Shown here piece after piece: positions 20,526-63,946 of a DNA stretch of 64,000 nucleotides. How positions within the stretch are numbered: the first letter of the stretch is position 1; every line of letters starts with the position of its first letter. The position numbers and the translations under genes are program-made. The stretch is taken from assembly GCA_964509835.1 (NCBI GenBank), contig CAZDZC010000008.1, positions 2,136 through 66,135 of the forward strand. The letters are read 5' to 3'. Below the pieces are notes generated by a model. It saw nothing but the letters and a program-made list of their open reading frames with translations. It had not been told where the DNA came from and ran no database searches. Origin of the DNA: an uncultured Acidobacteriota bacterium (GTDB lineage: Bacteria; Acidobacteriota; G020349885; CAZDZC01).

Positions 20526-20550
20526 AGGCATAGATTAACAGGAGTCTTTG

Positions 20551-21723
20551 ATGTATATCAAAAGAATACTCAGTTCAACATTCATTAAAGCAGTTTCAGG
20601 AATGCCTGCTGTATTAGTGACAGGGCCAAGACAGTCCGGAAAAACGACTTTCCTTAAAAACGAAACCCCTGAAGGCTTTGAGTATGTTTCCTTTGATGAT
20701 CCCCTCAACCGTCAAACAGCTATGGCTGACCCGGCAGGGTTTCTGAAACAATTGCAGCAGGAAAGGGTTGTTCTTGATGAGATACAGTATGTGCCGGAGC
20801 TTTTTCCTTACATAAAAATGGCAATAGACAGCGCTCCTGGTAAAAACGGCAGGTGGATAATGACAGGTTCCCAGCAGTTTTCTGTCATGAAAAATATATC
20901 CGAATCCCTTGCGGGAAGGGTCGCGATTCTCAACCTTTTGCCGTTCCATACGCTTGAGAGAATAAATGGCGGGGAATCCCTGGAGAACCTTATCTGGAAC
21001 GGAGGATATCCGGGCATCATAACCGGAAAGGACATCAGAGATATATGGCTGCCATCCTACATATCCACATACATTGAAAGAGATGTCAGGCAGATAATAA
21101 ATGTGCAGGACATAAACCAGTTCCAGACATTCACATCCCTGTGCGCAGCATCGCATGGACAGGAGCTCAACATGGCATCACTTTCAAGGTCGTGCGGACT
21201 CTCACAGCCCACATGCAAACGGTGGATATCCATATTGAGCTCATCATTCATCATAATGCTTGTCAAACCGTATTTCAAAAATCTGGGGAAGCGGCAGATA
21301 AAAGCACCGAAACTGTATTTTCTCGACAGCGCAATCGCAAACCATCTCACACGGCAGCCTTCAAAAGACGCTGCTCTTGCAGGTTCGATGGGCGGGGCTT
21401 TTTTTGAGGGATTCGTGATAACCGAGACCCACAAAATACTCACTTCAGTTAACAGGCAGCATGATATTTTTTTCTGGCGGTCGCACGGAGGGTTGGAGGT
21501 TGATATGATCCTTATAAAAGACGGTATAACCCACGCTGTCGAAATAAAGAAAACCTCAACTCCGAAATTGAGACACGGAGACAATCTGGTGAAATTTGCC
21601 GAACTTTCAGGTATTCAGGATCTGCGAATGTGGCTGGTGACAAACAGCGAAAGAAGGCTGACCCTTCCATCCGGAGTGGAGGTTCTTCCATGGAACGATT
21701 ACCTGGAAATGCTGGCGGACTAA
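20551..21723 (+). CDS. AAA-type ATPase with DUF4143 C-terminal domain (AAA_14/DUF4143 family)
   Basis: About 390 aa. Walker A GPRQSGKTT and Walker B VVLDEIQ are present. The later YISTYIERDV and KLYFLDSAI motifs are typical of the DUF4143 family. The ATG at 20551 has an AGGAG RBS 7 nt upstream. Confidence 0.8.
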   Translation: MYIKRILSSTFIKAVSGMPAVLVTGPRQSGKTTFLKNETPEGFEYVSFDDPLNRQTAMADPAGFLKQLQQERVVLDEIQYVPELFPYIKMAIDSAPGKNGRWIMTGSQQFSVMKNISESLAGRVAILNLLPFHTLERINGGESLENLIWNGGYPGIITGKDIRDIWLPSYISTYIERDVRQIINVQDINQFQTFTSLCAASHGQELNMASLSRSCGLSQPTCKRWISILSSSFIIMLVKPYFKNLGKRQIKAPKLYFLDSAIANHLTRQPSKDAALAGSMGGAFFEGFVITETHKILTSVNRQHDIFFWRSHGGLEVDMILIKDGITHAVEIKKTSTPKLRHGDNLVKFAELSGIQDLRMWLVTNSERRLTLPSGVEVLPWNDYLEMLAD

Positions 21724-21850
21724 ATTTCATATGGCGGTTTACCCCGTGTTGGAATGCCTTGTTGAACCGCCCCCCTTGCCATAAATCAATGTTCAGTATA
21801 GAATACAGCTTCATGATTTGACGGAAGATTTTCATTCAGAGGAGGAAGAC

Positions 21851-22528
21851 ATGAAGATAAACAGCTATATACAGACTATAAGTCAGATCAAATCTGACAT
21901 ACTTAAAAGCAGGTCCCTTGTTTCAAAGATAGCGAACAGAGAATTGCTGGCATTATATTTTAGAGTAGGTTCAATAATATCCGATAAAGTGACCAGAGAG
22001 AAATGGGGCAGCAGAACTATCGAGAATTTATCCGCAGACCTTCAAAAGGAGCTCAAAGGCCTGAGAGGTTTTTCATTTACGAATTTAAAAAGGATGAGGC
22101 AGTTTTATGAAGAATGGAAACCTTATTTGCGGAATCGATCGGATATTCCGGGTTTAATAAGCCCGTTGTCAACGGTCCAATTGAATCTGCCTGCGAATGT
22201 AATTAGCCCGTTGCTAACGGGCCAATTAATGGAACTCTTTGTTAATCTTACATTTACTGCGCATTGTGAGATAATGGCCAAGGCTAAAACTATTGATGCC
22301 AAAGTGTTTTATATTGCTAAAGCTGCGTCTGAGTTCTGGAATATTGAAACATTAAAAAGAAACTTAAAAAGCAGACTTTTTGAAAAAACAGGCAAACTGC
22401 CTAATAATTTCGAGGAGACCCTTCCCGAAAAAAGCAGGGGGAATGTGCTTGCGGCTTTCAGAGATCAGTATCTGCTGGATTTTGTAAGAATATCGGATGA
22501 AAAAACGCTAAAGAAACTTATGGATTGA
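21851..22528 (+). CDS. DUF1016/YhcG-family protein, N-terminal part only (C-terminal PD-(D/E)XK nuclease core missing)
   Basis: The ATG at 21851 has a GGAGG RBS. LLALYFRVGSIISDKV..WGSRTIENLSADLQKELKGLRGFSFTNLKRMRQFYEEW matches the YhcG N-domain. The ORF stops right after FRDQYLLDFV, where the nuclease domain normally begins. Confidence 0.6.
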   Translation: MKINSYIQTISQIKSDILKSRSLVSKIANRELLALYFRVGSIISDKVTREKWGSRTIENLSADLQKELKGLRGFSFTNLKRMRQFYEEWKPYLRNRSDIPGLISPLSTVQLNLPANVISPLLTGQLMELFVNLTFTAHCEIMAKAKTIDAKVFYIAKAASEFWNIETLKRNLKSRLFEKTGKLPNNFEETLPEKSRGNVLAAFRDQYLLDFVRISDEKTLKKLMD

Positions 22529-26531: not shown

Positions 26532-26710
26532 TTTATCTACACAACCCTTTACATAGAATATGTTTTAAGTAAACTACCGGGAAAAAGGGATTGAAAAGCC
26601 TTTCTGCTTTAGGTCTTACCTCCGAAAGTCGAGCTTGTTTATGGTCAGTTGAAGGCATTACATCACAAAATTCGGCCCAAAATCACACAAAACATCATAT
26701 ATGATTTTTG

Positions 26711-27004
26711 GAAAATCATATAATCGCGCCAGAAAATCATATCCGGCAATCAGGAAATCATATTCCGGAGTTTAGAAATCATATTCCGGCATCCAGAAAT
26801 CATATCCGGGAGTTTAGAAATCATATCCGGCGAACAGGAAGTCATATCCAGGCACGAAGAAATCATATTCCGGAGTTTAGAAGTCATATCCCGGCGCATA
26901 GAAATCATACTTCGGAGTTTAGAAATCATAATCGGCGACTAAGAAATCATATCCGGCAGCATAGATGTCATATATTGGCACGCGGAAATCATACTTTTCG
27001 GAAC
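26711..27004 (+). repeat. Tandem array of 14 phased 21-bp repeats (consensus AGAAATCATATCCGG + 6-7 variable nt)
   Basis: Unit starts are 26711, 26731, 26752, 26774, 26795, 26816, 26836, 26858, 26879, 26900, 26921, 26942, 26963 and 26984, a spacing of 20-22 nt with a mode of 21. Degenerate copies occur upstream from about 26660. Inverted-orientation ATATGAT-type copies occur downstream at 27071, 27092 and 27113 on the same 21-bp register. Confidence 0.9.
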
Positions 27005-54702: not shown

Positions 54703-55137
54703 ATGCCGATAAAAAAAGGGAACATTGAGGAAAGAATTTCACTCACCGTAAACGAGGTCAGGTTGTGCGAAAAAATATCCGCGACGCGGAGAGGCCTTGA
54801 TTCAAAAAGGGCCAAAGCCCTGATTGCCGTCAGTAATGGCGCAACCAACGCGGAAGCTTCAAAGTCAAGCGGGCTGGCTCACGGTCAGGTGCGGTATCTG
54901 CTGACTATTTTCAGAGATAAGCGGGCCGGGATTTTCGGGGACGAGAATTCGCAGCGCGTAAGAAAAACCGTGAAGGTGAAACAGTTAAAAGAAAAAGCTC
55001 CCGAGCCTGAGAAGAAAAAGAAAAGAGACGGTAAGAAGAAAAAGAAAGATAAATCGGGCAAAAAGGAAAAAAAGGAAAAGAAAAACAGGAAAAAGTCCAA
55101 AAAGGGCAAGAAATCAAAAAAATCAGGGAAGAAATAA
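54703..55137 (+). CDS. HTH-like protein with an extreme poly-lysine C-terminal tail (histone-H1-like / nucleoid-associated candidate)
   Basis: 144 aa with a strong AAGGAGG RBS. The N-terminal ~90 aa contain an HTH-like stretch (ALIAVSNGATNAEASKSSGLAHGQVRYLL). The C-terminal ~45 aa are mostly Lys (KKKKRDGKKKKKDKSGKKEKKEKKNRKKSKKGKKSKKSGKK). Confidence 0.6.
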   Translation: MPIKKGNIEERISLTVNEVRLCEKISATRRGLDSKRAKALIAVSNGATNAEASKSSGLAHGQVRYLLTIFRDKRAGIFGDENSQRVRKTVKVKQLKEKAPEPEKKKKRDGKKKKKDKSGKKEKKEKKNRKKSKKGKKSKKSGKK

Positions 55138-55228: not shown

Positions 55229-55284
55229 GCATAGAATGTATGTTTGGTGACATGCATAGGTTTTGGTTTTTACGGATCTGATTG

Positions 55285-55614
55285 ATGGGATGTAATGCTT
55301 TGGAATTTCTAGATTTAATCCGGAAAAGAGCGTCTGAAAGGATATTGTTCTTGCCTCATGCATTAAGCCAAATGCTCCGCCCTGACAGGATGATTCTTGC
55401 TTCCGATGTTCGATATGTTGTTGAAAATGGTGAGATTATTGAAGATTACCCGAATGATCCCAGGGGGCATAGCTGTCTTATGTTATGTAAAGATTTAACC
55501 GACAGACCGATTCATGTCGTGTGTTCACCGAAAGACGAGTTTCTTGCAATAATAACAGCCTATATTCCGGATAACGGACAGTGGTCTGATGACTACAGAA
55601 GGAGGATTGAGTAG
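55285..55614 (+). CDS. DUF4258-family toxin-like protein
   Basis: About 109 aa. ILFLPHALSQMLRPDRMI..VVENGEIIEDYPNDPRGHSCLMLC..RPIHVVCSP..LAIITAYIPD matches the DUF4258 pattern as I recall it. Confidence 0.7.
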   Translation: MGCNALEFLDLIRKRASERILFLPHALSQMLRPDRMILASDVRYVVENGEIIEDYPNDPRGHSCLMLCKDLTDRPIHVVCSPKDEFLAIITAYIPDNGQWSDDYRRRIE

Positions 55615-55826
55615 TGAAATGTATTTATTGTAAAGGCAATATGGTAAGGGGCAATGCGCCATTTCATATTGACCGTAAAGATGTGCATATCAGCCTTGAT
55701 AATGTTCCTGCATGGGTCTGCAGTCAATGTGGCGAAGTATATTTTGAGGAATCTGAAGTTGACACAATTCAGGACATTATAAAAGCCGTTGATGAACAAA
55801 CACATAAACTGGCTGACACAGCTTAG
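55614..55826 (+). CDS. YgiT-type zinc-finger protein (MqsA-N-terminal-like antitoxin)
   Basis: 70 aa. CIYCKG...VPAWVCSQCGEVYFEE is a CxxC...CxxC zinc ribbon. The GTG start overlaps the toxin stop by 1 nt. Confidence 0.7.
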   Translation: MKCIYCKGNMVRGNAPFHIDRKDVHISLDNVPAWVCSQCGEVYFEESEVDTIQDIIKAVDEQTHKLADTA

Positions 55827-55857: not shown

Positions 55858-57921
55858 TTATCCGTGCAGTTCCTTTAAATAGTTTTGGAACTCGTTCTGG
55901 CTCGCTGTTTTCTTCCGGGCTGAAACAGCACGGTAGCGGTTGTCCTGTTCCGCGTTATGGATTCGTGCCTTCTTGGCGTCGTCCCACTGGATCTGAAGGA
56001 AGTCCCGGATTTCTTTCTTCAGGCTTTCATCATACACCGGACAGGTGACCTCAACCCGGTGGTCAAGGTTCCTTGTCATCCAGTCGGCTGATGAGATGAA
56101 CATTTTTTCGTTTCCGCCGTTGCAGAATACAAAAATCCGTGTATGTTCCAGGTATTTGTCAACAATGCTTATCCCCTCGATGTTCTCGCTGAACCCTTTC
56201 ACTCCGGGGATAAGCGAACAGATCCCTCTGACAATAAGCTTTATTTTTACCCCTTTCATGCCCGCATCGTAAAGCTTTTTTATCATAACCCTGTCCACAA
56301 GGCTGTTCATCTTAAGAAAGATATACGCTTCCTTGCCCTTTGCCACCGCTTCCATTTCATTATTGATATACTTGATCATTTTCTTTCTCATGGTGAACGG
56401 CGAGACAATGAGATGCTTGTAAGTGTATGTTTTATAATTGGTTTCCAGGAATTCGAACACCCTGTCCACCTCCCTTGTGATCCTTTTGTCGGCCGTAAGA
56501 AGGATGACATCGCTGAAAACCCCCATTGTGTCCTCGTTGAAATTGCCCGTTCCGACCCCGGCGAAATAATCGGTTTTATCTTTTCCCTCTCTTTCAATAA
56601 GGATGATCTTCGAGTGCATCTTCAGACCCGGTATGCCGAAGACAAGTTTTATCCCCTCTCTCTGAAGGATATTGGACCAGCGGATATTCGCCTCCTCATC
56701 AAACCTCGCCCTCAGCTCGACAACGACCGTCACGCTCTTCCCGTTTCTTGCCGCATTTACCAGGGCATTAATGACCCGCGATTTTTTGGCCACCCTGTAT
56801 AGCGCAATCTTTATTGATTTTACCTTGGGGTCAATCGCGGCTTCCCTCAGCAGATCAATCAGATGGCTGTGAGGCTGATAAGGAAAATGAAGCAGGAGGT
56901 CTTTCGAGGCCATCACATCAAGAGTGCTGCCGTAAGGGTTCAAAAGCTTGTGCCTGACGGGCTCCACCTTCCGGTATTCAAGCGACTTCGAACCAATGTT
57001 CGGAAAAGACATGAAATCCTTGAAATTGTGATATCTCCCGCCATGAATTATATTGTCGCCCCTTGAAAGCTCAAGACTGTCAACGAGAAATTCAAGCAGG
57101 TCGTCCGGGATGGAAGCGTCCGAAACAAACCGGAGAGGTTCGCCCCGCTCCCTGTCCTTCACGCTTTTGGATATCTGCTCCAGAAAACTCTTGGAGACAT
57201 CATTGTCAATATCAAGCTCCGCGTCCCTGGTGAACTTCACGGCGTAGGCCTCCGCCTTCTCGTACCGGATAAAATGAAAAATATCGTGCAGGCAGAACCT
57301 GATTACATCATCAAGCAGGATCAGAAATTTCCGCGGTCCTCTCTTCGGAAGCTCAATGAACCTCGGCAGGACATCCGTCGGTATCTCTATAAGCGCGTAC
57401 TCACTGCCGTCCTTCTGTCTGAGATTGTAAAACTTGACCGCGAGATAAAGCGATTTATCGTTCAGAGACGGGAACTTCTTGTTCTTGCTCAGCATAAGCG
57501 GAACCAGGACGGGCCTCACATTTGACAGAAAGTAATTCTTGACAAAAATCCCCTGCTCCTCGCTGAGCTTATTCTCATCAACAAGAAACACATTCTTCTT
57601 TTCCAACTGCCGGATGATATCCTCATATATATGCTGGAACTCCTCCTGCTGTTTTGAGATTATCTTATAGATCTCCTTGAGAACCTTGGAAGGGCTTTTA
57701 CCGATAATTGCCTTGGCTTTTTTCCCGAGGTTCGCCATCCTTCTCAGCGTAGCGACCCTTACCTTGTAAAATTCATCCTGATTATTTGAGAAAATTCCGA
57801 GGAACCGCATCCTGTTGACGAGCGGAACGGACGGATCGGCGGCCTCCTGCAGAACCCTCGAGTTAAAGGCCAGCCAGCTTATTTCGCGGTTAACAAACAT
57901 CTCTTTCTTTGCCATTGTCAA
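55858..57921 (-). CDS. ppk: Polyphosphate kinase 1
   Basis: 687 aa. Motifs: FVNREISWLAFNSRVLQEA, FLGIFSNNQDEFYKVRV, and two PLD-like HKD-type modules (MHSKIILIE.., LEHTRIFVF). Confidence 0.95.
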   Translation of the reverse strand: MTMAKKEMFVNREISWLAFNSRVLQEAADPSVPLVNRMRFLGIFSNNQDEFYKVRVATLRRMANLGKKAKAIIGKSPSKVLKEIYKIISKQQEEFQHIYEDIIRQLEKKNVFLVDENKLSEEQGIFVKNYFLSNVRPVLVPLMLSKNKKFPSLNDKSLYLAVKFYNLRQKDGSEYALIEIPTDVLPRFIELPKRGPRKFLILLDDVIRFCLHDIFHFIRYEKAEAYAVKFTRDAELDIDNDVSKSFLEQISKSVKDRERGEPLRFVSDASIPDDLLEFLVDSLELSRGDNIIHGGRYHNFKDFMSFPNIGSKSLEYRKVEPVRHKLLNPYGSTLDVMASKDLLLHFPYQPHSHLIDLLREAAIDPKVKSIKIALYRVAKKSRVINALVNAARNGKSVTVVVELRARFDEEANIRWSNILQREGIKLVFGIPGLKMHSKIILIEREGKDKTDYFAGVGTGNFNEDTMGVFSDVILLTADKRITREVDRVFEFLETNYKTYTYKHLIVSPFTMRKKMIKYINNEMEAVAKGKEAYIFLKMNSLVDRVMIKKLYDAGMKGVKIKLIVRGICSLIPGVKGFSENIEGISIVDKYLEHTRIFVFCNGGNEKMFISSADWMTRNLDHRVEVTCPVYDESLKKEIRDFLQIQWDDAKKARIHNAEQDNRYRAVSARKKTASQNEFQNYLKELHG

Positions 57922-58195: not shown

Positions 58196-58873
58196 ATGAA
58201 GAAAGAAATCGGAAATAACGAACTGCTGGAAGAAGTTAAACGCCACATGGGCGTTCTGGAGGAGAGCTTTGAGAGCAAGCTCAACGCCGTTATTGATGTT
58301 GTTCAGCATAACAGCGAAAAACTTGACCTGCATATAGAGAAAAGCGAAGAGCAGTTTGGCAAGCTTGAAAACCAGATCATGCTTGTGGATGTCAAGCTGT
58401 CAAAAAAAATAGATGCTGTTGATGACAAACTGAGTAAAAGAATAGATGCCGTTGATGACAAACTGAGTAAAAGAATAGATGCCGTTGATGAGAAACTGAG
58501 CAAGAGAATAGATGCTGTGGGTAACAGGGTTGGCTCTCTTGAAAAGAACTTCAATTCTTTGGACAAGAAAGTCGGCTCGCTGGATAAGAAAGTTGATTCG
58601 CTGGACAAGAAAGTCGGCTCGCTGGATAAGAAGGTTGATTCGCTGGACAAGAAAGTCGGCTCACTGGATAAGAAAGTTGATTCTCTGGACAAAAAAGTCG
58701 GCTCTTTGGATACAAAGGTTGGTTTTCTGGATAAGAAGGTTGACAGCAACCATAAAGAAGTGATGGCTGCCATAAAATTCTCGTATGCCGAACTTAATGA
58801 CCGTATTGTGGGGATGGAAAAGAAGATTATGGATCTTGACGAAAGGCTTCTAAGACTGGAGAACGCGGGATAA
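58196..58873 (+). CDS. Coiled-coil protein built from 11-residue and 7-residue tandem repeats
   Basis: 225 aa with no signal peptide. It contains about 3.3 copies of KRIDAVDDKLS, then 9 copies of LDKKV(G/D)S heptads. Confidence 0.7.
   Translation: MKKEIGNNELLEEVKRHMGVLEESFESKLNAVIDVVQHNSEKLDLHIEKSEEQFGKLENQIMLVDVKLSKKIDAVDDKLSKRIDAVDDKLSKRIDAVDEKLSKRIDAVGNRVGSLEKNFNSLDKKVGSLDKKVDSLDKKVGSLDKKVDSLDKKVGSLDKKVDSLDKKVGSLDTKVGFLDKKVDSNHKEVMAAIKFSYAELNDRIVGMEKKIMDLDERLLRLENAG
58407..58747 (+). repeat. In-gene tandem repeats: about 3.3 copies of 33 bp (58407..58515), then 9 copies of 21 bp (58559..58747, alternating as a 42-bp unit)
   Basis: Read directly from the sequence: AGAATAGATGCCGTTGATGACAAACTGAGTAAA units, then alternating CTGGATAAGAAAGTTGATTCG and CTGGACAAGAAAGTCGGCTCG units. 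Confidence 0.9.
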
Positions 58874-58926
58874 ATAATTGTTCACCGAAAGATCACATTG
58901 TGCCCCCGCTGCAAATCCGAATATAG

Positions 58927-58953
58927 AAGGTCCTCACTTGAGGGCCTTTTTTA
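58927..58953 (+). terminator. Rho-independent terminator after the coiled-coil gene
   Basis: AAGGTCCTC-ACTT-GAGGGCCTT (one G-U pair) followed by TTTT. Confidence 0.65.
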
Positions 58954-58978
58954 TTGGATATTGAAGGAAATATGTATT

Positions 58979-59326
58979 ATGGAAGATGTTGAAATTGTGG
59001 AATTGCAAAGAAGAGAAGGCTATACTGCAAGATCAATTACAGCAGGCAACTATAGTATGAGACTGGGCTCTCTTTTCAAGGATTCTCCACGCAAATCGGG
59101 AATTATCGGCAGTGATAAGCTGGGAGAAGATGGTTCATTAAGCGACTGTTTATGTATTATGGTCATTGAATCTAATCGAGATCCTCGCGACATTATTTCC
59201 AGCTGTAACTTCGACAAAGAATGTGAAAGACCAAATTCAGACTGCAGAGTCCTCCGGAAAAAAACAATCTGCCTTGACCTTTCAGCGGAGGAACTGGAAG
59301 CCAAGCTGAGAGAATGCGAGGAGTGA
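58979..59326 (+). CDS. Hypothetical protein
   Basis: The track ORF 58898..59326 spans the terminator, so I prefer the ATG at 58979 (MEDVEIVELQRREGY.., 115 aa). No family was recognised. Confidence 0.4.
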   Translation: MEDVEIVELQRREGYTARSITAGNYSMRLGSLFKDSPRKSGIIGSDKLGEDGSLSDCLCIMVIESNRDPRDIISSCNFDKECERPNSDCRVLRKKTICLDLSAEELEAKLRECEE

Positions 59327-59368: not shown

Positions 59369-59398
59369 TTGTTCAATCTGTTGACTGTGATATAATGC
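59369..59398 (+). promoter_or_regulatory. Sigma70-type promoter with extended -10 (TTGTTC-16 nt-TGATATAAT) upstream of the ATPase gene
   Basis: TATAAT lies at 59391..59396. The 13-mer TGTGATATAATGC (59386..59398) is identical to 58179..58191. Confidence 0.5.
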
Positions 59399-59435
59399 AC
59401 ATTGTTGTGAGAATGATCTCCAAAATGAGCAGGAC

Positions 59436-60557
59436 ATGAAAAAAGCACTTGATACCATAACAATTGAAGGTTACAAATCTTTCAGGAACCTGAAGGATTT
59501 CAAGCTGAACGAACTTAATGTTCTCATCGGAGCAAATGGCGCCGGCAAATCCAACTTCATTGACTTCTTCGAACTTCTTTACCATATTGTTTCCGGTGAT
59601 CTTCAACTGACCGTCGGTAAGGCTGGTGGTGCGGATTCTTTGCTGTATAACGGAAGAAAGACCACTGATGAGTTACATTTGGAACTTTGGTTTGAAGGAA
59701 AAGTGCTGGAATCCAAGAATGGATATGATGCTACATTGAATGCTACTCAAGATGATAAATTAATTTTTGGTTCTGAAACTGTTTATTTCTGGGATAAAAA
59801 GAGATATCCCCAAGAACCTTATAAAAACTCTCTGGGGCATGGGCATAACGAATCTTGCTTAGACGATCCGAGGGAGCAGGCTGCATCGAGATCCACAATT
59901 TATGTCCTTGATGCGATCAAAAGTTGGCGTGTCTATCACTTTCATGACACAAGTGATACGGCAAAGGTCAAACAATTAGGGAAAATAGATGACAACAGGT
60001 TTCTCAGGCCTGATGCTTCCAATCTTGCAGCCTGTTTATATCTGATGAAGAAAAAGAAAAAGGACCATTACGACAACATAGTTGATACAATAAAGATGGT
60101 TGCTCCCTTCTTCGATGACTTTATTCTTGAGCCATCTCCCCTTAATGAAGGGAGGATAAAACTTGAGTGGAAAGAAAAGGGCTCGGACGCTTACTTTGAC
60201 GGTAACTCCTTCTCCGATGGAACTCTAAGGTTCATCTGCCTTGCAACCCTGCTTATGCAGCCTGAAGTTCCCACAACAATACTCCTCGATGAACCTGAAC
60301 TTGGACTGCACCCCTATGCAATAACCGTTCTGGCAACCCTTCTCCGGGCAGCATCGCAGAAAACACAGGTCATTGTTTCCACACAGTCGGTCACTCTTGT
60401 TAATCAGTTCACTCCAGAGGATCTGATAATTGTGGAAAGGGAGGACGGGCAATCTGTGCTGAAAAGATTTACAGATCAGGAAATAGCCAGTTGGCTGGAT
60501 GATTACGGAATGGGGGACTTATGGGAAAAGAACATTATAGGCGGCAGACCTAAATGA
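59436..60557 (+). CDS. ABC-type (AAA_15/AAA_21-like, OLD/AriA/AbiLi-like) ATPase
   Basis: 373 aa. Walker A is GANGAGKSN (aa 32-40, K38), followed by a long insert. The C-terminal ILLDEPELGLHP is a Walker B/D-loop, followed by VSTQS (H-loop-like). Confidence 0.8.
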   Translation: MKKALDTITIEGYKSFRNLKDFKLNELNVLIGANGAGKSNFIDFFELLYHIVSGDLQLTVGKAGGADSLLYNGRKTTDELHLELWFEGKVLESKNGYDATLNATQDDKLIFGSETVYFWDKKRYPQEPYKNSLGHGHNESCLDDPREQAASRSTIYVLDAIKSWRVYHFHDTSDTAKVKQLGKIDDNRFLRPDASNLAACLYLMKKKKKDHYDNIVDTIKMVAPFFDDFILEPSPLNEGRIKLEWKEKGSDAYFDGNSFSDGTLRFICLATLLMQPEVPTTILLDEPELGLHPYAITVLATLLRAASQKTQVIVSTQSVTLVNQFTPEDLIIVEREDGQSVLKRFTDQEIASWLDDYGMGDLWEKNIIGGRPK

Positions 60558-61210
60558 AAAGAGTGCTGATCCTTGTTGAAGGCCAGACAGAGGAAACAGC
60601 TGTTCGTGACATAATACAACCTTGCCTCCTTGAAAAAGACATCTGCATCATACCTACCATCCTGACCACAAAGCGCGTGAAAGATGGAAAGGATTTCAAG
60701 GGGGGAGTGTCAAGATATGAAAAGATCAGAAAGGAACTTAAACTTCTGCTGGCTGACACGGACGCTCAAGCCATTACAACATTCCTTGACTACTATGGGC
60801 TCCCCGGTGATTTCCCGGGGAAAAAAGATCTGAGATCATCAGACTGTTTTGAAAGAGTTACATTTCTGGAAAGAGCTTTTAGTGAAGACATAGAGGATAA
60901 GAGATTCCTTCCCTTTCTTGCACTTCATGAATTTGAAGCATACCTTTTCTGTTCACCAGGAGAAATGGCCAAAGCTTTTCCCGACCAGACCCTGAAGGAT
61001 CAGTTCAATAACATCTGCAACCAATTTGATTCACCTGAAGAGATCAACCAGGGGAAAGACACTCATCCTTCAGCAAGAATAACCGGACTGGTAGCTGGAT
61101 ACGAAAAAGCGCACCACGGCCCGTTGATTGTCGGCAGGATAGGATTGGATAACATCCGTGAACAGTGCAGGCATTTCAACGAATGGATCTGCAAACTGGA
61201 ATCAATATAG
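60554..61210 (+). CDS. DUF4276-family protein (predicted Toprim-like effector partner of the ATPase)
   Basis: 218 aa. The ATGA overlap with the ATPase stop suggests translational coupling. Motifs: N-terminal ILVEGQTEE, LHEFEAYLF, and HPSARI. The DUF4276 assignment is from memory. Confidence 0.65.
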   Translation: MKRVLILVEGQTEETAVRDIIQPCLLEKDICIIPTILTTKRVKDGKDFKGGVSRYEKIRKELKLLLADTDAQAITTFLDYYGLPGDFPGKKDLRSSDCFERVTFLERAFSEDIEDKRFLPFLALHEFEAYLFCSPGEMAKAFPDQTLKDQFNNICNQFDSPEEINQGKDTHPSARITGLVAGYEKAHHGPLIVGRIGLDNIREQCRHFNEWICKLESI

Positions 61211-61473: not shown

Positions 61474-61547
61474 AAGAGAACGGAACGGAAATAGCATCCT
61501 ACAAGTATTATATCAACGGGAACAGGTATGAAAAAACGGAAAACGGA

Positions 61548-62504
61548 GTGACAACCGGATATACATACAGCGGAAACTCGGTAATAAAAGAGGAAACTGC
61601 AACTTACACCCGCTATTACACGCACGGACAGGGAATAGACAATGTGATGGCACAGGACGACGGGACTTCAACAAACTATTACTACAAGAACCATCTCGGC
61701 TCTACATCCGTGATATCAAACGGAACATACACAGATGATTACGACTACACCTCCTGGGGCGAACCCGTAGCAAACGCAACGAACTTCCATAATCCGTACA
61801 TCTACACAGGCAGGGAAGCAGCGGAAAACGGGCTGTATTATTACCGGGCTAGGTTCTATGATCCGGGCATTGGAAGGTTCAACTCTGCTGATCCGATGGG
61901 ATTGGGTGCAGGGATTAATCATTTTGCTTATACTTTCAATAATCCTATCTTGTTATCAGATCCATCAGGGTCAGTTCCAAAAGGCAAGGCACTATTTGGA
62001 GTATGTTGTAGACCAGTAAATATTCCAGGAAATCCAGGATTTCAGCACTGCTATATAGCCATGAAAGCTGGAAAACAAGAAAAGACATGGAGCTTGAAAG
62101 GACCTGCATATATGATTGGGACAGGAACATCCATTAAGAATTGGAAAGAAGATGTAGTAAGTGATTCAGATTGCAAATGGGGTACATTTTGTAAGGAGGC
62201 TACAGAGAATTGCATTGATGCTGCACATGATAGCTGGCCAAGTAGAACAGCTTATTTTCCTTTTCCTCCATCATTTTCTGAGTTTTACACATGCAATAGT
62301 TATGCATCACACATTGCTTTTAAATGCGGGATTCCATTTAATCCATGGATTTCTAATAAAATAATTGCTCCTGGTTGGGGTAAAACATATCAGGCACCAG
62401 ATCCATATCCAACCTTTGGTGGTGATGTTGGTCCGGGTGCTGGTCCCTTATCAGGCTATAGGGGAACTCTTCCGTCCTTATCTACATCTCCATTATCGAT
62501 GTAA
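61548..62504 (+). CDS. Orphan (5'-truncated) Rhs/YD-repeat C-terminal module: RHS core end + variable C-terminal toxin domain
   Basis: YD-like sequence in this frame already begins at about 61437 (VEWDEEDRLSAIKENGTEIASYKYY), and the frame opens at 61389. The first start codon is the GTG at 61548. The core end is YYYRARFYDPGIGRFNSADPMGL..YTFNNPILLSDPSG, followed by a 177-aa unique C-terminal domain. Confidence 0.75.
   Translation: MTTGYTYSGNSVIKEETATYTRYYTHGQGIDNVMAQDDGTSTNYYYKNHLGSTSVISNGTYTDDYDYTSWGEPVANATNFHNPYIYTGREAAENGLYYYRARFYDPGIGRFNSADPMGLGAGINHFAYTFNNPILLSDPSGSVPKGKALFGVCCRPVNIPGNPGFQHCYIAMKAGKQEKTWSLKGPAYMIGTGTSIKNWKEDVVSDSDCKWGTFCKEATENCIDAAHDSWPSRTAYFPFPPSFSEFYTCNSYASHIAFKCGIPFNPWISNKIIAPGWGKTYQAPDPYPTFGGDVGPGAGPLSGYRGTLPSLSTSPLSM
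61604..61761 (+). repeat. 158-bp direct repeat, copy 1 (Rhs core segment)
   Basis: 155 of 158 nt are identical to 63709..63866, at an offset of 2105 bp. Confidence 0.95.
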
Positions 62505-62527: not shown

Positions 62528-63538
62528 ATGAAGATTAAAAGTGAATTTAGTACGTTGTTATTTTCGCTATCCTTATTTTTATTAATAACTGGATGCGTTA
62601 CTGATTCGACAATTGATGTTGATGATGTGACATTCCAAAACGATCTTTCGTCATGGACTATAGTTGCAAAGAGTTTTGATAGTAAGTTGAGTATTTGTAC
62701 TGCGAAGGAATTTGTGGACAAAGAATATAAGCCAATATTCCAGATGAAGGGTGTTGGATTGAATCTAATAAGGACTGCTTTCGTTTTACAGGATGAAAAC
62801 AATATTCTTGTGGAGGAGCCTAATGGAGCTTTTTTTCAAATTGACCGCGAAGGCAACATAACAAAGAATTCAATTCCTGAAATTCCTTCAGCAGCAAGTA
62901 TTTCATATCAACGGGAATTGAACCGACTTTCTTTTTTTAATTATAGAGTATTTAGTCTTCTTTATCTTGATTCTCTTGAATTGCATGAAGTTAGAAAAAT
63001 TACCTATCGTAAAGTCGAGGGATTAAGTTATTCATCATATTCGGACACAGTCCATAGCTGGTCCCCTGATTATAAAAATGTAGTGTACTGCATTGATGGA
63101 AAAGATTTGTATATTCACAATTTCGAATCAGGCAATAATAAATTTCTCGTTTCAGGTATAGAACCATTATGGATACCTGAAACAGCAAAGATAGTATATA
63201 GGTCAGATCCATCTAAAAAACCTCGTTCACGAGAATCAAAATATTACAATATATGCCAAATCAACTCTGATGGATCTAATAATGAGGTTCTAATTTCAGA
63301 AAAAGAATTAAAATCGTGGACAAGAGAAATCTTTACAATATATAGCTGGAGCGGTGTACTTACAAATCTCTTTTGCTCTCCTGATGGTAAGTATTTAGTG
63401 TTTGGTGTAATTACAGGGGAGGGACATAGTGGATATAATTATGTATTCTTTGATCTAGCAACGAGAAAATTTTATATAACAGGATCCGGATTTAACTATA
63501 AAATCTTGCAAACCTTAGCTCTGACGGAAGCTCCTTAA
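62528..63538 (+). CDS. Lipoprotein with TolB-like (PD40/WD40-like) beta-propeller repeats: candidate immunity protein
   Basis: 336 aa. Lipobox LLITGC and PD40-like motifs (WSPDYKNVVY, CSPDGKYLVFG). It lies 23 nt downstream of the Rhs toxin module in very AT-rich DNA. Confidence 0.6.
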   Translation: MKIKSEFSTLLFSLSLFLLITGCVTDSTIDVDDVTFQNDLSSWTIVAKSFDSKLSICTAKEFVDKEYKPIFQMKGVGLNLIRTAFVLQDENNILVEEPNGAFFQIDREGNITKNSIPEIPSAASISYQRELNRLSFFNYRVFSLLYLDSLELHEVRKITYRKVEGLSYSSYSDTVHSWSPDYKNVVYCIDGKDLYIHNFESGNNKFLVSGIEPLWIPETAKIVYRSDPSKKPRSRESKYYNICQINSDGSNNEVLISEKELKSWTREIFTIYSWSGVLTNLFCSPDGKYLVFGVITGEGHSGYNYVFFDLATRKFYITGSGFNYKILQTLALTEAP

Positions 63539-63592: not shown

Positions 63593-63946
63593 ATGAGTAA
63601 ACCCGCTGAAATAATGAAGACTACAAACGCAACACCCGTGAACTACAGCTATTATCAGAACGCCAGGAGCAGCAACTCCCAGCTCCTGCAATCAGACGGC
63701 GTCTGGAATTACACCCGCTATTACACGCATGGACAGGGAATAGACAATGTGATGGCAAAGGACGACGGGACTTCAACAAACTATTACTACAAGAACCATC
63801 TCGGCTCTACATCCGTGATATCAAACGGAACATACACAGATGATTACGATTACACCTCCTGGGGCGGGATTGTGACAGGCAGCTCAATGCCCGGGGAGGG
63901 GAATTCGACGGAGTTTATCCTGAGCCTGTCGAAGGGCTCAGCCTGA
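63593..63946 (+). pseudogene. Second Rhs core remnant, truncated before the DPxGL motif
   Basis: WNYTRYYTHGQGIDNVMAKDDGTSTNYYYKNHLGSTSVISNGTYTDDYDYTSWG is near-identical to 61548 ORF residues 18-71. It then diverges into unrelated sequence and stops. Confidence 0.7.
63709..63866 (+). repeat. 158-bp direct repeat, copy 2 (Rhs core segment)
   Basis: 155 of 158 nt are identical to 61604..61761. Confidence 0.95.

What the first reader, a model, noticed from the sequence alone, without database searches (positions are those of the whole stretch)
59369..61210. Translationally coupled ABC-type ATPase + DUF4276 pair: OLD/PARIS/AbiL-like two-gene module, candidate uncharacterised defence system
- The 373-aa protein has the split ABC layout: Walker A GANGAGKSN at aa 32-40, a long insert, then ILLDEPELGLHP. 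OLD, Gabija GajA, PARIS AriA, Septu PtuA and AbiLi use the same layout.
- Its TGA stop overlaps the ATG of a 218-aa protein in an ATGA overlap at 60554..60557.
- The second protein carries an N-terminal strand-plus-acidic motif ILVEGQTEE, plus LHEFEAYLF and HPSARI. I recognise these as the DUF4276 signature. An N-terminal hydrophobic-strand-E-G motif is what Toprim-type nucleases show.
- In the known systems the ATPase senses and a Toprim, HNH or DUF4435 partner executes. This pair has that logic but a different effector family.
- The module has its own strong extended -10 promoter.
- It sits among a toxin-antitoxin pair and Rhs toxin cassettes.
- I am not aware of experimental characterisation of an ATPase-DUF4276 pair, and I cannot verify that here.
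Basis: partly seen in the sequence, partly recalled or inferred. Interest (0 to 1): 0.75.

Follow-up and report, generated by a model that had tools for sequence, protein, structure and literature searches.

The report
Known candidate defence pair HEC-01
The two overlapping genes are real, but they are a divergent copy of an already catalogued candidate anti-phage module (PADLOC "HEC-01": an ABC-type ATPase plus a Toprim-fold nuclease), so this is a new member of a known kind whose mechanism is still unsolved.

Summary
Both match the PADLOC models HEC-01A (6.5e-153) and HEC-01B (9.1e-78) over their full length, so this is the catalogued candidate system HEC-01.

Structure models fit the expected roles. 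The ATPase is an SMC/OLD/PtuA-like ABC head. The DUF4276 protein's best matches are the Toprim catalytic region of class 2 OLD nucleases and an RloB-like phage protein.

The A-then-B arrangement holds in 78 of 78 informative loci from many phyla, and 54 of the 78 share the 4-nt overlap. At least four of 30 loci sit inside helicase/methylase defence systems (a fifth looks the same by gene layout); the rest, like this window, stand alone.

The literature already covers this pair:
- One HEC-01 representative gave no protection in E. coli.
- Another protected against at least one of T4, T5 and T7.
- Mad3-Mad4 of MADS is reported as a related ATPase-DUF4276 pair and is needed for that system's defence.

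The "different effector family" and "uncharacterised" points are not. The most likely mechanism is an ATPase sensor that licenses a Toprim nuclease. Trigger and substrate are unknown.

The parts
59388..59396 (+). TGATATAAT, an extended -10-like match 40 nt upstream of the ATPase start. Function untested.
   Evidence: Read directly. The 9-mer occurs 6 times in the window against 1.5 expected. The two-hexamer scan does not call it, because the -35 TTGTTC at 59369-59374 matches 3 of 6.
59436..60557 (+). HEC-01A, a 373-aa ABC-type ATPase (AAA_21/AAA_15), the presumed sensor/regulator.
   Evidence: PADLOC HEC-01A PDLC04175 6.5e-153, aa 1-372 on model positions 1-362 of 363. Pfam AAA_21 2.7e-28. AF2 model pLDDT 92, pTM 0.89. 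Fold matches: SMC head 4i99 3.7e-13, TsOLD 6p74 1.9e-12, PtuA complexes. All ATPase motifs are invariant in 60 homologues.
59529..59555 (+). Walker A codons, GANGAGKSN (aa 32-40, K38).
   Evidence: Sequence. G32, N34, G35, G37, K38 and N40 are invariant.
60213..60230 (+). ABC signature motif codons, S260-D-G-T-L-R265.
   Evidence: All six residues are invariant in 60 homologues.
60279..60314 (+). Walker B / D-loop codons, ILLDEPELGLHP (aa 282-293, D285 and E286).
   Evidence: Sequence. D285 to P293 are invariant.
60519..60554 (+). Codons of the ATPase C-terminal tail (aa 362-373, LWEKNIIGGRPK). It is conserved but modelled as disordered, and may be a docking peptide.
   Evidence: L362, W363, K365, N366, G369, G370, R371 and P372 are invariant. 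pLDDT is below 50 for aa 362-373. The docking role is inference.
60554..60557 (+). ATGA stop/start overlap between the two genes.
   Evidence: Sequence. The same 4-nt overlap occurs in 54 of 78 homologous loci and a 1-nt overlap in 9. The remaining 15 have gaps of 0 to 13 nt.
60554..61210 (+). HEC-01B, a 218-aa DUF4276 protein with a Toprim-like fold, the presumed nuclease effector.
   Evidence: Pfam DUF4276 1.6e-50. PADLOC HEC-01B PDLC04188 9.1e-78. AF2 model pLDDT 89, pTM 0.85. The top four PDB matches are the C-terminal Toprim region of class 2 OLD nucleases (6nk8_A probability 1.00, TM 0.46/0.49). The best viral match is an RloB-like protein. Invariant residues: E13, E14, D79, Y81, H125, E126, E128, E162, K185. 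E9 is conserved at 90% or more.

Best explanation
The pair is a stand-alone, apparently intact copy of the two-gene module that PADLOC catalogues as HEC-01. It is a split relative of OLD-family nucleases. I think it most likely works as an anti-phage or anti-mobile-element system in four steps:
1. The ABC ATPase (HEC-01A) forms an oligomer that holds or gates the Toprim-fold protein (HEC-01B).
2. A cue from infection changes the nucleotide state or conformation of the ATPase.
3. This releases or activates HEC-01B.
4. HEC-01B cuts nucleic acid, using its acidic cluster (E9, E13, E14, D79, E126, E128) to bind metal.

Shown here: family membership, fold, conserved residues, obligate pairing, patchy distribution across phyla, and occasional embedding in restriction-type systems.

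Inferred by analogy with OLD, Gabija, PARIS and Septu: the physical A-B complex, ATP control of the nuclease, nuclease activity itself, the substrate, and the trigger.
For: Family membership. Both proteins match HEC-01A and HEC-01B over their full length, at 6.5e-153 and 9.1e-78.

ATPase:
- Walker A, signature and Walker B residues are invariant in 60 homologues and present here.
- The model is an ABC head, closest to SMC, TsOLD and PtuA.
- The only solved relative detectable by sequence below E = 3e-4 is an OLD nuclease.

Partner protein:
- The confident model best matches the catalytic Toprim region of class 2 OLD nucleases and an RloB-like protein.
- It carries a conserved Glu after strand 1, an Asp after strand 3, and further invariant acids.
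- Payne et al. report a conserved metal-binding site against BpOLD.

Pairing. An ATPase homologue lies directly upstream on the same strand in 78 of 78 loci where upstream sequence exists. In 63 of those 78 the genes overlap by 4 or 1 nt.

Distribution. At least 537 loci occur in species-representative genomes of many phyla, and 13 plasmids carry the pair, including an 11-kb mobilisable plasmid where it sits beside vapBC.

Defence association:
- Among 120 nearest neighbours from 30 loci, 5 to 7 carry helicase domains and 6 carry a DNA methylase domain.
- PADLOC names these HmaB-like, BrxH/HmaA/DrmD-like and type III R-M.
- One close relative abuts a GmrSD_N gene.

Literature:
- One HEC-01 representative protected E. 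coli B against at least one of T4, T5 and T7.
- Deleting mad3 or mad4 reduces MADS defence.
Against: - A different HEC-01 representative gave no protection against any phage tested in E. coli K-12.
- The text of the positive report does not single out HEC-01 as a strong effect, and gives no mutants.
- The Toprim match is borderline in numbers: Foldseek E = 1.6e-3 and TM 0.46-0.49. A sequence profile finds no solved structure at all.
- The literal Toprim DxD motif is absent; the family has D79-x-Y81.
- In this window the pair is not in a defence island. Most neighbours are housekeeping.
- Most homologous loci have no adjacent defence genes. Payne et al. state that most of their candidates are not enriched near other defences.
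- No phage genome carries it.
- Nothing here shows that the two proteins bind each other or that either has activity.
Confidence: 0.6

Rival explanations
1. The module is not autonomous. It is an accessory restriction component of methylation-based systems, as Mad3-Mad4 are in MADS or as embedded genes are in Hma, DISARM-like or type III R-M loci. It would need a partner methylase/helicase to tell self from non-self. On this reading the copy in the window is an orphan with little or no activity.
For: - The pair is embedded between an HmaB-like methylase and a SNF2 helicase in L039 and L041, and between a DrmD-like helicase and a type III R-M system in L060 and L072.
- mad3 and mad4 are needed for MADS defence.
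- A stand-alone HEC-01 clone gave no protection.
Against: - Most of the 30 loci sampled have no helicase or methylase among the two genes on either side, as in this window.
- Small plasmids carry the bare pair.
- All family-invariant residues are kept here, which argues for selection on the stand-alone form.
- One stand-alone representative was reported protective.
- The ATPase scores 100.6 bits against the MAD3 model, whose cut-off is 420.
Confidence: 0.15
2. It is a selfish stabilisation or addiction-type module (toxic nuclease plus ATPase antidote/regulator). Its main effect would be to maintain plasmids or genomic islets rather than to stop phages.
For: - It occurs on 13 plasmids, including an 11-kb MOBQ plasmid where it sits beside vapBC.
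- Its chromosomal contexts are highly variable.
- A toxin-antitoxin pair and Rhs tips lie nearby in the window.
- Pfam describes AAA_21 as 'putative AbiEii toxin, Type IV TA system'.
Against: - No post-segregational killing or toxicity data exist for this family.
- The architecture (large ABC ATPase first, nuclease second) matches sensor-effector defence systems, not known toxin-antitoxin pairs.
- It recurs inside restriction-type loci.
Confidence: 0.1
3. It is a housekeeping DNA-repair or chromosome-maintenance ATPase/nuclease pair of the RecF/RecN/SbcCD/Rad50-Mre11 kind.
For: - The best Foldseek match of the ATPase is an SMC head (4i99), and Rad50 heads follow.
- Pfam SMC_N scores 1.1e-11.
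Against: - NCBIfam recF scores 26 bits against a cut-off of 172, and SMC 23.6 bits against 729.
- The protein has 373 aa, and no coiled-coil insert appears in the model.
- The family is patchy, turns up in unrelated contexts and on plasmids, and shows no conserved synteny with replication or repair genes.
- The ppk locus of the nearest relative lacks it.
Confidence: 0.03

Closest known systems
PADLOC HEC-01 (Hma-embedded candidate 01; Payne et al., bioRxiv 10.1101/2024.01.29.577857)
   Same: Both proteins match its HMMs over their full length. The gene order, sizes, ABC ATPase and Toprim-like partner are the same.
   Different: The window copy is not embedded in an Hma system. It is divergent: the nearest database relatives are 68% (A) and 57% (B) identical. 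It comes from a poorly sampled lineage.
Class 2 OLD nucleases (BpOLD 6NK8, XccOLD 6NJW) and class 1 TsOLD (6P74)
   Same: The Toprim catalytic region is the best structural match for HEC-01B. TsOLD is the best sequence match among solved structures and the third fold match for HEC-01A.
   Different: In OLD, the ATPase and Toprim are one polypeptide; here they are two genes. Sequence identity is 12-16%. D79-x-Y81 replaces the literal DxD.
Mad3-Mad4 of MADS (Maestri et al.; bioRxiv 10.1101/2023.03.30.534895)
   Same: It is an AAA_15/21-type ABC ATPase followed by a DUF4276 homologue. Both genes are needed for that system's phage defence.
   Different: Mad3-Mad4 work inside an eight-gene methylation-associated operon. 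The window ATPase scores 100.6 bits against a cut-off of 420 for MAD3. HEC-01B hits no mad4 model even at E up to 10. No mad6-8 genes are present in the window.
PARIS (AriA/AriB) and AbiL (AbiLi/AbiLii)
   Same: They are split two-gene systems with an AAA_15/21 ABC ATPase plus a separate Toprim-superfamily nuclease. In PARIS the ATPase scaffold releases the nuclease on sensing a phage protein.
   Different: Their effector is DUF4435, not DUF4276 (Pfam finds only DUF4276 here). AriA and AbiLi models score 104 and 75 bits, against 507 for HEC-01A. The PARIS complex ranks only 39th among fold matches. PARIS is often encoded on viral genomes, whereas no phage record carries HEC-01B.
RloA/RloB-type pairs and Menshen NsnC effectors with a DUF4276 domain (PMC12065111)
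   Same: An RloB-like protein is the best match in the viral structure library. DUF4276 and RloB are described together as new Toprim members used as effectors with ABC ATPases.
   Different: Menshen has three genes (NsnA/B/C), and its DUF4276 is a C-terminal domain of NsnC. The NsnB model scores 66.7 bits here.

Membership tests
PADLOC HEC-01 | Protein A matches a HEC-01A profile | tested here: met
   PDLC04175 6.5e-153, 507 bits, aa 1-372 on model positions 1-362 of 363. The next non-HEC family scores 105 bits.
PADLOC HEC-01 | Protein B matches a HEC-01B profile | tested here: met
   PDLC04188 9.1e-78, aa 1-217 on positions 12-225 of 230. No other PADLOC family hits, even at E up to 10.
PADLOC HEC-01 | The two genes are adjacent on one strand, A before B | tested here: met
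   4-nt overlap in the window. The same order holds in 78 of 78 informative homologous loci.
PADLOC HEC-01 | Embedded in an Hma (helicase-methylase-ATPase) locus. This is how the family was discovered; it is not required for detection. | tested here: not met
   The window neighbours are ppk, a coiled-coil protein and Rhs tips, and no Hma model hits anywhere in the window. Some relatives are embedded.
PADLOC HEC-01 | Confers phage resistance | not testable with these tools
   The literature is split: no protection and protection against at least one of T4, T5 and T7. Both tests used other representatives.
Toprim superfamily (for the 218-aa protein) | Three-layer alpha/beta fold with a four-stranded sheet and alternating helices | tested here: inconclusive
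   The model has strands 2-8, 30-36 and 73-79 plus short strands near 118-123, with helices in between. The top four PDB matches are OLD Toprim regions at probability 0.98-1.00, but TM is 0.40-0.49 and E is 1.6e-3 to 4.8e-3. I could not superpose coordinates or check strand order.
Toprim superfamily (for the 218-aa protein) | Conserved Glu in the loop after strand 1 | tested here: met
   E9 directly follows strand 2-8 and is conserved in at least 90% of 60 homologues. E13 and E14 are invariant.
Toprim superfamily (for the 218-aa protein) | DxD motif after strand 3 | tested here: not met
   After strand 73-79 the family has an invariant D79, a variable residue 80 and an invariant Y81. The next acid, D86, is conserved at 90% or more. 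PMC12065111 reports the motif for Menshen DUF4276 domains. In this subfamily only the first Asp is literal.
OLD-family nuclease | ABC ATPase and Toprim nuclease in one polypeptide | tested here: not met
   There are two separate ORFs with a stop codon at 60555-60557. The split is conserved in 78 loci. PADLOC Old scores 61 bits and GajA 50 bits.
PARIS | AriB effector of the DUF4435 family | tested here: not met
   Pfam finds only DUF4276, and no AriB model hits at E up to 10.
MADS (Mad3-Mad4) | ATPase reaches the MAD3 equivalog cut-off, and mad6-8 genes are present | tested here: not met
   NF047739 scores 100.6 bits against a cut-off of 420. At E up to 1e-15, the only MADS model hit in the rest of the window is mad3, by two other proteins that I did not identify. 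No mad4 hit.
RecF/RecN/SMC housekeeping ATPases | Reaches the family cut-off; has a coiled-coil or RecF-type insert | tested here: not met
   recF scores 26.1 bits against 172, and SMC 23.6 bits against 729. The protein has 373 aa and the model has no long coiled coil.

The most novel reading that the evidence does not exclude
Stand-alone HEC-01 may be an autonomous immune module that works differently from OLD, Gabija and PARIS. Three features point that way:
- Its Toprim-like protein has a non-canonical catalytic set: Glu9/13/14, Asp79 without the second Asp, and an invariant His125-Glu126-x-Glu128.
- It has a conserved basic loop (aa 39-51).
- The ATPase ends in an invariant but disordered 12-residue tail, and carries Thr-Gln-Ser where I expected the H-loop histidine.

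On this reading, the tail would tether or inhibit the effector until a so far unknown trigger arrives. The effector's substrate could be something other than duplex DNA, for example a tRNA as in PARIS.
Probability: 0.2. Interest if true: 0.55.

Novelty: new member of a known kind. Interest (0 to 1): 0.25.

Why it matters
HEC-01 is widespread. It occurs at 537 or more loci among species-representative genomes, and a 2026 survey lists it among the most abundant candidate systems in cold-seep microbes. Yet nobody has shown its trigger, its substrate, or that its two proteins interact, and the two published phage tests disagree.

This copy adds little by itself. It is one more intact, divergent, stand-alone member from a poorly sampled lineage. 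The comparative data gathered here may still help whoever takes the family to the bench:
- strict A-then-B pairing with overlapping or near-abutting stop and start codons;
- the list of invariant residues;
- the missing second Asp of the Toprim motif;
- the conserved disordered ATPase tail.

Tried and rejected
- **Sequence profile against solved structures.** A profile of 60 HEC-01B homologues found nothing in PDB sequences, even at E up to 10. The Toprim link therefore rests on the structure model and on the literature.
- **Phage genomes.** tblastn of HEC-01B against 50,697 phage records gave no match. I dropped the idea that the pair is phage- or satellite-borne like PARIS.
- **Source contig.** The look-up returned only a 932-bp Logan contig, so it gave no extra context or organism name.
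- **Host placement.** The ppk search places the host only roughly, with best hits at 54-62% identity to Bacteroidota MAGs. The ppk locus of the nearest relative shares no synteny, so I could not define insertion boundaries.
- **Mobile-element marks.** The window has no tRNA gene, and no integrase showed among the Pfam families listed. I have no evidence that the pair lies on a discrete mobile island. GC content is only slightly lower than in the flanks.
- **Membership elsewhere.** I considered and rejected membership in OLD, PARIS, AbiL, MADS, Menshen and RecF/SMC (see the membership table).
- **Enrichment statistics.** I did not compute a defence-enrichment statistic. The neighbour survey covers 30 loci and two genes on each side, uses crude ORF calls, and is descriptive only.
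Full report
**1. Observation**

The two ORFs exist exactly as described. ORF 59436..60557 (+) encodes 373 aa and ORF 60554..61210 (+) encodes 218 aa. The ATG of the second overlaps the TGA of the first at 60554-60557.

- GANGAGKSN is at aa 32-40 and ILLDEPELGLHP at aa 282-293 of the first protein.
- ILVEGQTEE (E9), LHEFEAYLF (aa 124-132) and HPSARI (aa 171-176) are in the second.

Pfam gives AAA_21 2.7e-28, AAA_15 5.3e-14 and SMC_N 1.1e-11 for the first protein. It gives DUF4276 1.6e-50 over the whole model for the second.

**2. What it is**

PADLOC-DB names both proteins at once. The first matches HEC-01A (PDLC04175, 6.5e-153, 507 bits, full length). The second matches HEC-01B (PDLC04188, 9.1e-78, full length).

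Other ATPase models score far lower:
- PDC-M07A 105 bits, AriA 104, mad3 92
- AbiLi 75, NsnB 67
- Old 61, GajA 50

The second protein hits nothing but HEC-01B models, even at E up to 10. NCBIfam has no model that either protein passes. The MAD3 model scores 100.6 bits against a cut-off of 420, and recF scores 26 bits against 172.

HEC-01 ("Hma-embedded candidate 01") was defined by Payne et al. (bioRxiv 10.1101/2024.01.29.577857) as an ABC ATPase plus a TOPRIM-like protein. It was found embedded in Hma systems and also elsewhere.

**3. The ATPase**

I aligned 60 homologues at 57-69% identity to the window protein. The following are invariant:
- Walker A residues G32, N34, G35, G37, K38, N40
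- the signature S260-D-G-T-L-R265
- Walker B and the residues after it, D285-E-P-E-L-G-L-H-P293

T316-Q317-S318 is also invariant. It sits where I would expect the H-loop histidine, but I assigned that position by eye.

The AlphaFold2 model is confident (pLDDT 92, pTM 0.89). It matches ABC heads:
- SMC head 4i99, 3.7e-13
- Thermus OLD 6p74, 1.9e-12
- PtuA from Septu and retron complexes, about 3e-12 to 1e-10
- Rad50

By sequence alone, 6p74 is the best solved match (E = 2.2e-4); two SMC3 head chains follow at 6e-4 and 8e-4. The protein has 373 aa and the model shows no coiled-coil insert. It is therefore a compact ABC head of the defence-associated AAA_15/21 kind, not an SMC, RecN or SbcC protein.

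The last 12 residues (LWEKNIIGGRPK) are almost all invariant, yet they are modelled as disordered. I read this as a probable docking peptide. That is inference.

**4. The DUF4276 protein**

I aligned 60 homologues at 47-57% identity.
- Invariant: G10, T12, E13, E14, G51, D79, Y81, P88, H125, E126, E128, E162, P172, K185, G197, C205, W211.
- Conserved at 90% or more: E9 and D86, among others.

The model is confident (pLDDT 89, pTM 0.85). It has alternating strands and helices. E9 sits at the end of strand 1, D79 at the end of strand 3, and H125-E126-x-E128 just after the last short strands.

The top four of 350,542 PDB chains are all the C-terminal Toprim catalytic region of class 2 OLD nucleases (6nk8, 6njw, 6njv, 6njx), at probability 0.98-1.00. 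The numbers are borderline, however: E = 1.6e-3 to 4.8e-3 and TM 0.40-0.49. The best match in the viral library is an RloB-like protein (probability 1.00, TM 0.47). A sequence profile finds no solved structure.

Two papers agree independently:
- Payne et al. align HEC-01B to BpOLD and report a shared metal-binding site.
- The Menshen study (PMC12065111) calls DUF4276 and RloB new Toprim-superfamily members.

One caveat comes from my alignment. The literal DxD of Toprim is D79-x-Y81 in this subfamily.

The "different effector family" in the finding is thus a divergent Toprim, the same fold class as in OLD, Gabija, PARIS and AbiL.

**5. Pairing and distribution**

HEC-01B has 1,045 relatives at E ≤ 1e-5 in the 5.8-billion-protein set. 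The nearest non-self sequences are 57% and 68% identical.

A scan of species-representative genomes found at least 537 loci. They include Chloroflexota, Acidobacteriota, cyanobacteria, Verrucomicrobiota, Xenorhabdus, Pectobacterium, Acinetobacter, Aeromonas and Fictibacillus.

In the 80 best loci:
- 78 have an ATPase homologue directly upstream on the same strand. The other two begin at a contig edge.
- The stop/start junction is a 4-nt overlap in 54 of the 78 and a 1-nt overlap in 9. The remaining 15 have gaps of 0 to 13 nt.

The pair is therefore an obligate, tightly packed two-gene unit. No phage record carries it. Thirteen plasmids do, including an 11-kb MOBQ Acinetobacter plasmid where it sits beside vapBC and tet(39), and a Piscirickettsia plasmid.

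**6. Neighbourhoods**

I took the two nearest ORFs on each side in 30 independent loci, 120 proteins in all, from crude ORF calls.
- 7 of the 120 carry DEAD/ResIII/Helicase_C domains, 5 carry SNF2 and 6 carry N6_N4_Mtase.
- The rest are mostly housekeeping enzymes, each seen once.

PADLOC names the flanking genes in the four loci I checked:
- An HmaB-like methylase upstream and a BrxH/HmaA-like SNF2 helicase downstream in L039 and L041.
- A DrmD-like helicase upstream and type III R-M genes downstream in L060 and L072 (both the methylase and the restriction enzyme confirmed in L060, the methylase in L072).

By gene layout, L054 resembles L039 and L041, but I did not check it. Other contexts are glycosyltransferase clusters or ordinary metabolic genes. 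One close relative abuts a GmrSD_N gene.

A minority of loci are thus embedded in restriction-type systems, as Payne et al. described. Most stand alone, as they also noted. I did not compute an enrichment statistic.

**7. The window itself**

Upstream of the pair lie:
- ppk (55858-57921, minus strand)
- a repeat-built coiled-coil protein (58196-58873)
- a 142-aa ORF with no family match (58898-59326)

A DUF4258 toxin with an MqsA/YokU-like antitoxin lies at 55282-55826.

Downstream, 61548-62504 carries an Rhs-associated core domain (TIGR03696, 4.8e-22). A second partial copy starts at 63593, and the two share a 158-nt repeat at 98% identity.

The remaining 50 kb is largely housekeeping: succinate dehydrogenase, succinyl-CoA ligase, MacB-type transporters, ppk/ppx and ndk. 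The only other PADLOC matches are PDC-S01 (20548-21723) and PDC-S02 (21818-22528), 37 kb away. No tRNA gene is present.

The window is not a dense defence island. The pair sits at the edge of a small variable patch.

The promoter claim reduces to a TGATATAAT match at 59388-59396 with a weak -35. The host's ppk is closest to Bacteroidota at only 54-62% identity, so sigma-70 rules may not apply.

**8. What is already known**

- Payne et al. expressed one HEC-01 representative in E. coli K-12 ΔRM and saw no protection against their phage set.
- A Nature Communications paper from 2026 (PMC12881386) lists HEC-01 among the most abundant candidate types in cold-seep genomes. It reports that one representative protected E. 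coli B against at least one of T4, T5 and T7. The text gives no fold-change and no mutants.
- The PARIS paper (PMC11464382) places "MADS3-4" and AbiL among ABC ATPase plus TOPRIM systems, and uses DUF4276 as one of its domain annotations.
- In MADS, deleting mad3 or mad4 reduces defence.

The ATPase-DUF4276 combination is therefore neither unrecognised nor untested. Its mechanism is still open.

**9. Mechanism**

The best-supported reading is a split OLD-like system. The ATPase acts as sensor and regulator, and the Toprim-fold protein is a metal-dependent nuclease that the ATPase holds in check or activates.

This study shows:
- family membership
- folds
- conserved catalytic-type residues
- obligate pairing
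- patchy distribution, with some copies plasmid-borne
- occasional embedding in restriction systems

The following are inferred by analogy with OLD, Gabija, PARIS and Septu:
- complex formation
- ATP control
- nuclease activity
- the substrate
- the trigger

Rivals, in order of weight:
1. An accessory restriction component that needs a methylation-based partner.
2. A selfish stabilisation module.
3. Housekeeping repair, which the scores and the distribution make unlikely.

**10. Verdict**

This is a new, divergent, intact, stand-alone member of a known candidate family, and interest is low to moderate.

Four details may be worth a specialist's attention:
- the missing second Asp of the Toprim motif
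- the invariant HExE motif
- the conserved disordered ATPase tail
- the Thr-Gln-Ser at the position where I expected the H-loop

Noticed in passing
window 55282-55826 (+): Toxin-antitoxin pair: a 110-aa DUF4258 protein (1.7e-22) whose stop region abuts the start of a 70-aa zinc-ribbon protein. The second protein has weak YokU/MqsA-antitoxin matches (1e-4 to 2e-4).
   Followed up: partly
window 61548-62504 and 63593-63946 (+); repeat 61604-61761 = 63709-63866: Two Rhs tip cassettes with no full-length Rhs gene in the window. The first has an Rhs-associated core domain (TIGR03696, 4.8e-22, aa 67-141) followed by about 175 aa that match no family. The second repeats its N-terminal part, and a 158-nt stretch is 98% identical between them.
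   Followed up: partly
window 62528-63538 (+): A 336-aa lipoprotein-like ORF between the two Rhs tips, in the lowest-GC stretch of the region (0.32-0.38). It has only faint PD40/TolB/DPPIV_N beta-propeller hits. It may be an immunity protein or unrelated cargo.
   Followed up: no
window 58196-58873 (+): A 225-aa coiled-coil protein built from in-frame tandem DNA repeats: four copies spaced 33 nt apart, and 21-nt units repeated at least seven times (DKKVGSL/DKKVDSL heptads). The same TGATATAAT 9-mer lies 7 nt before its ATG.
   Followed up: no
window 20548-21723 and 21818-22528 (+): Two PADLOC single-gene candidates side by side: PDC-S01 (5.1e-97), which may be the window's one DUF4143 Pfam hit, and PDC-S02 (9.2e-52, with a weak PD-DExK hit). 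In the cold-seep study, the tested representatives of these two types were not among those that protected.
   Followed up: partly
window 6934, 24626(-), 48954, 58181, 59388, 61507(-): The pattern TGNTATAAT occurs 6 times against 1.5 expected (2 of 100 shuffles reach 6), and five of the six are the identical TGATATAAT. Three lie within the 3.4 kb around the pair, including one on the minus strand at 61507-61515 that points back toward the 3' end of the operon.
   Followed up: no
window 26708-27004 (+): A 99-aa ORF made almost wholly of a repeated 'NHI...R' peptide unit (ENHIRQSGNHIPEFRNHIPASRNHIREFRNHI...). It may be a tandem DNA repeat rather than a gene.
   Followed up: no
window 54703-55137 (+): A 144-aa ORF whose C-terminal third is almost pure lysine with Gly, Ser and Glu (KKKKRDGKKKKKDKSGKKEKKEKKNRKKSKKGKKSKKSGKK). 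It has no family match.
   Followed up: no
HEC-01B aa 39-51 (window 60668-60706): The basic loop TTKRVKDGKDFKGG is conserved across the family (T39, K40, G45, F48, G50, G51) but is the only low-confidence part of the model (pLDDT 42). It may contact nucleic acid or the partner protein.
   Followed up: no
L085 (Acinetobacter sp. TR11 plasmid pTR11_2, 10,958 bp): A small MOBQ mobilisable plasmid carries the bare ATPase-DUF4276 pair directly after vapBC and next to tetR and tet(39). This shows that the pair travels as a self-contained cassette.
   Followed up: partly
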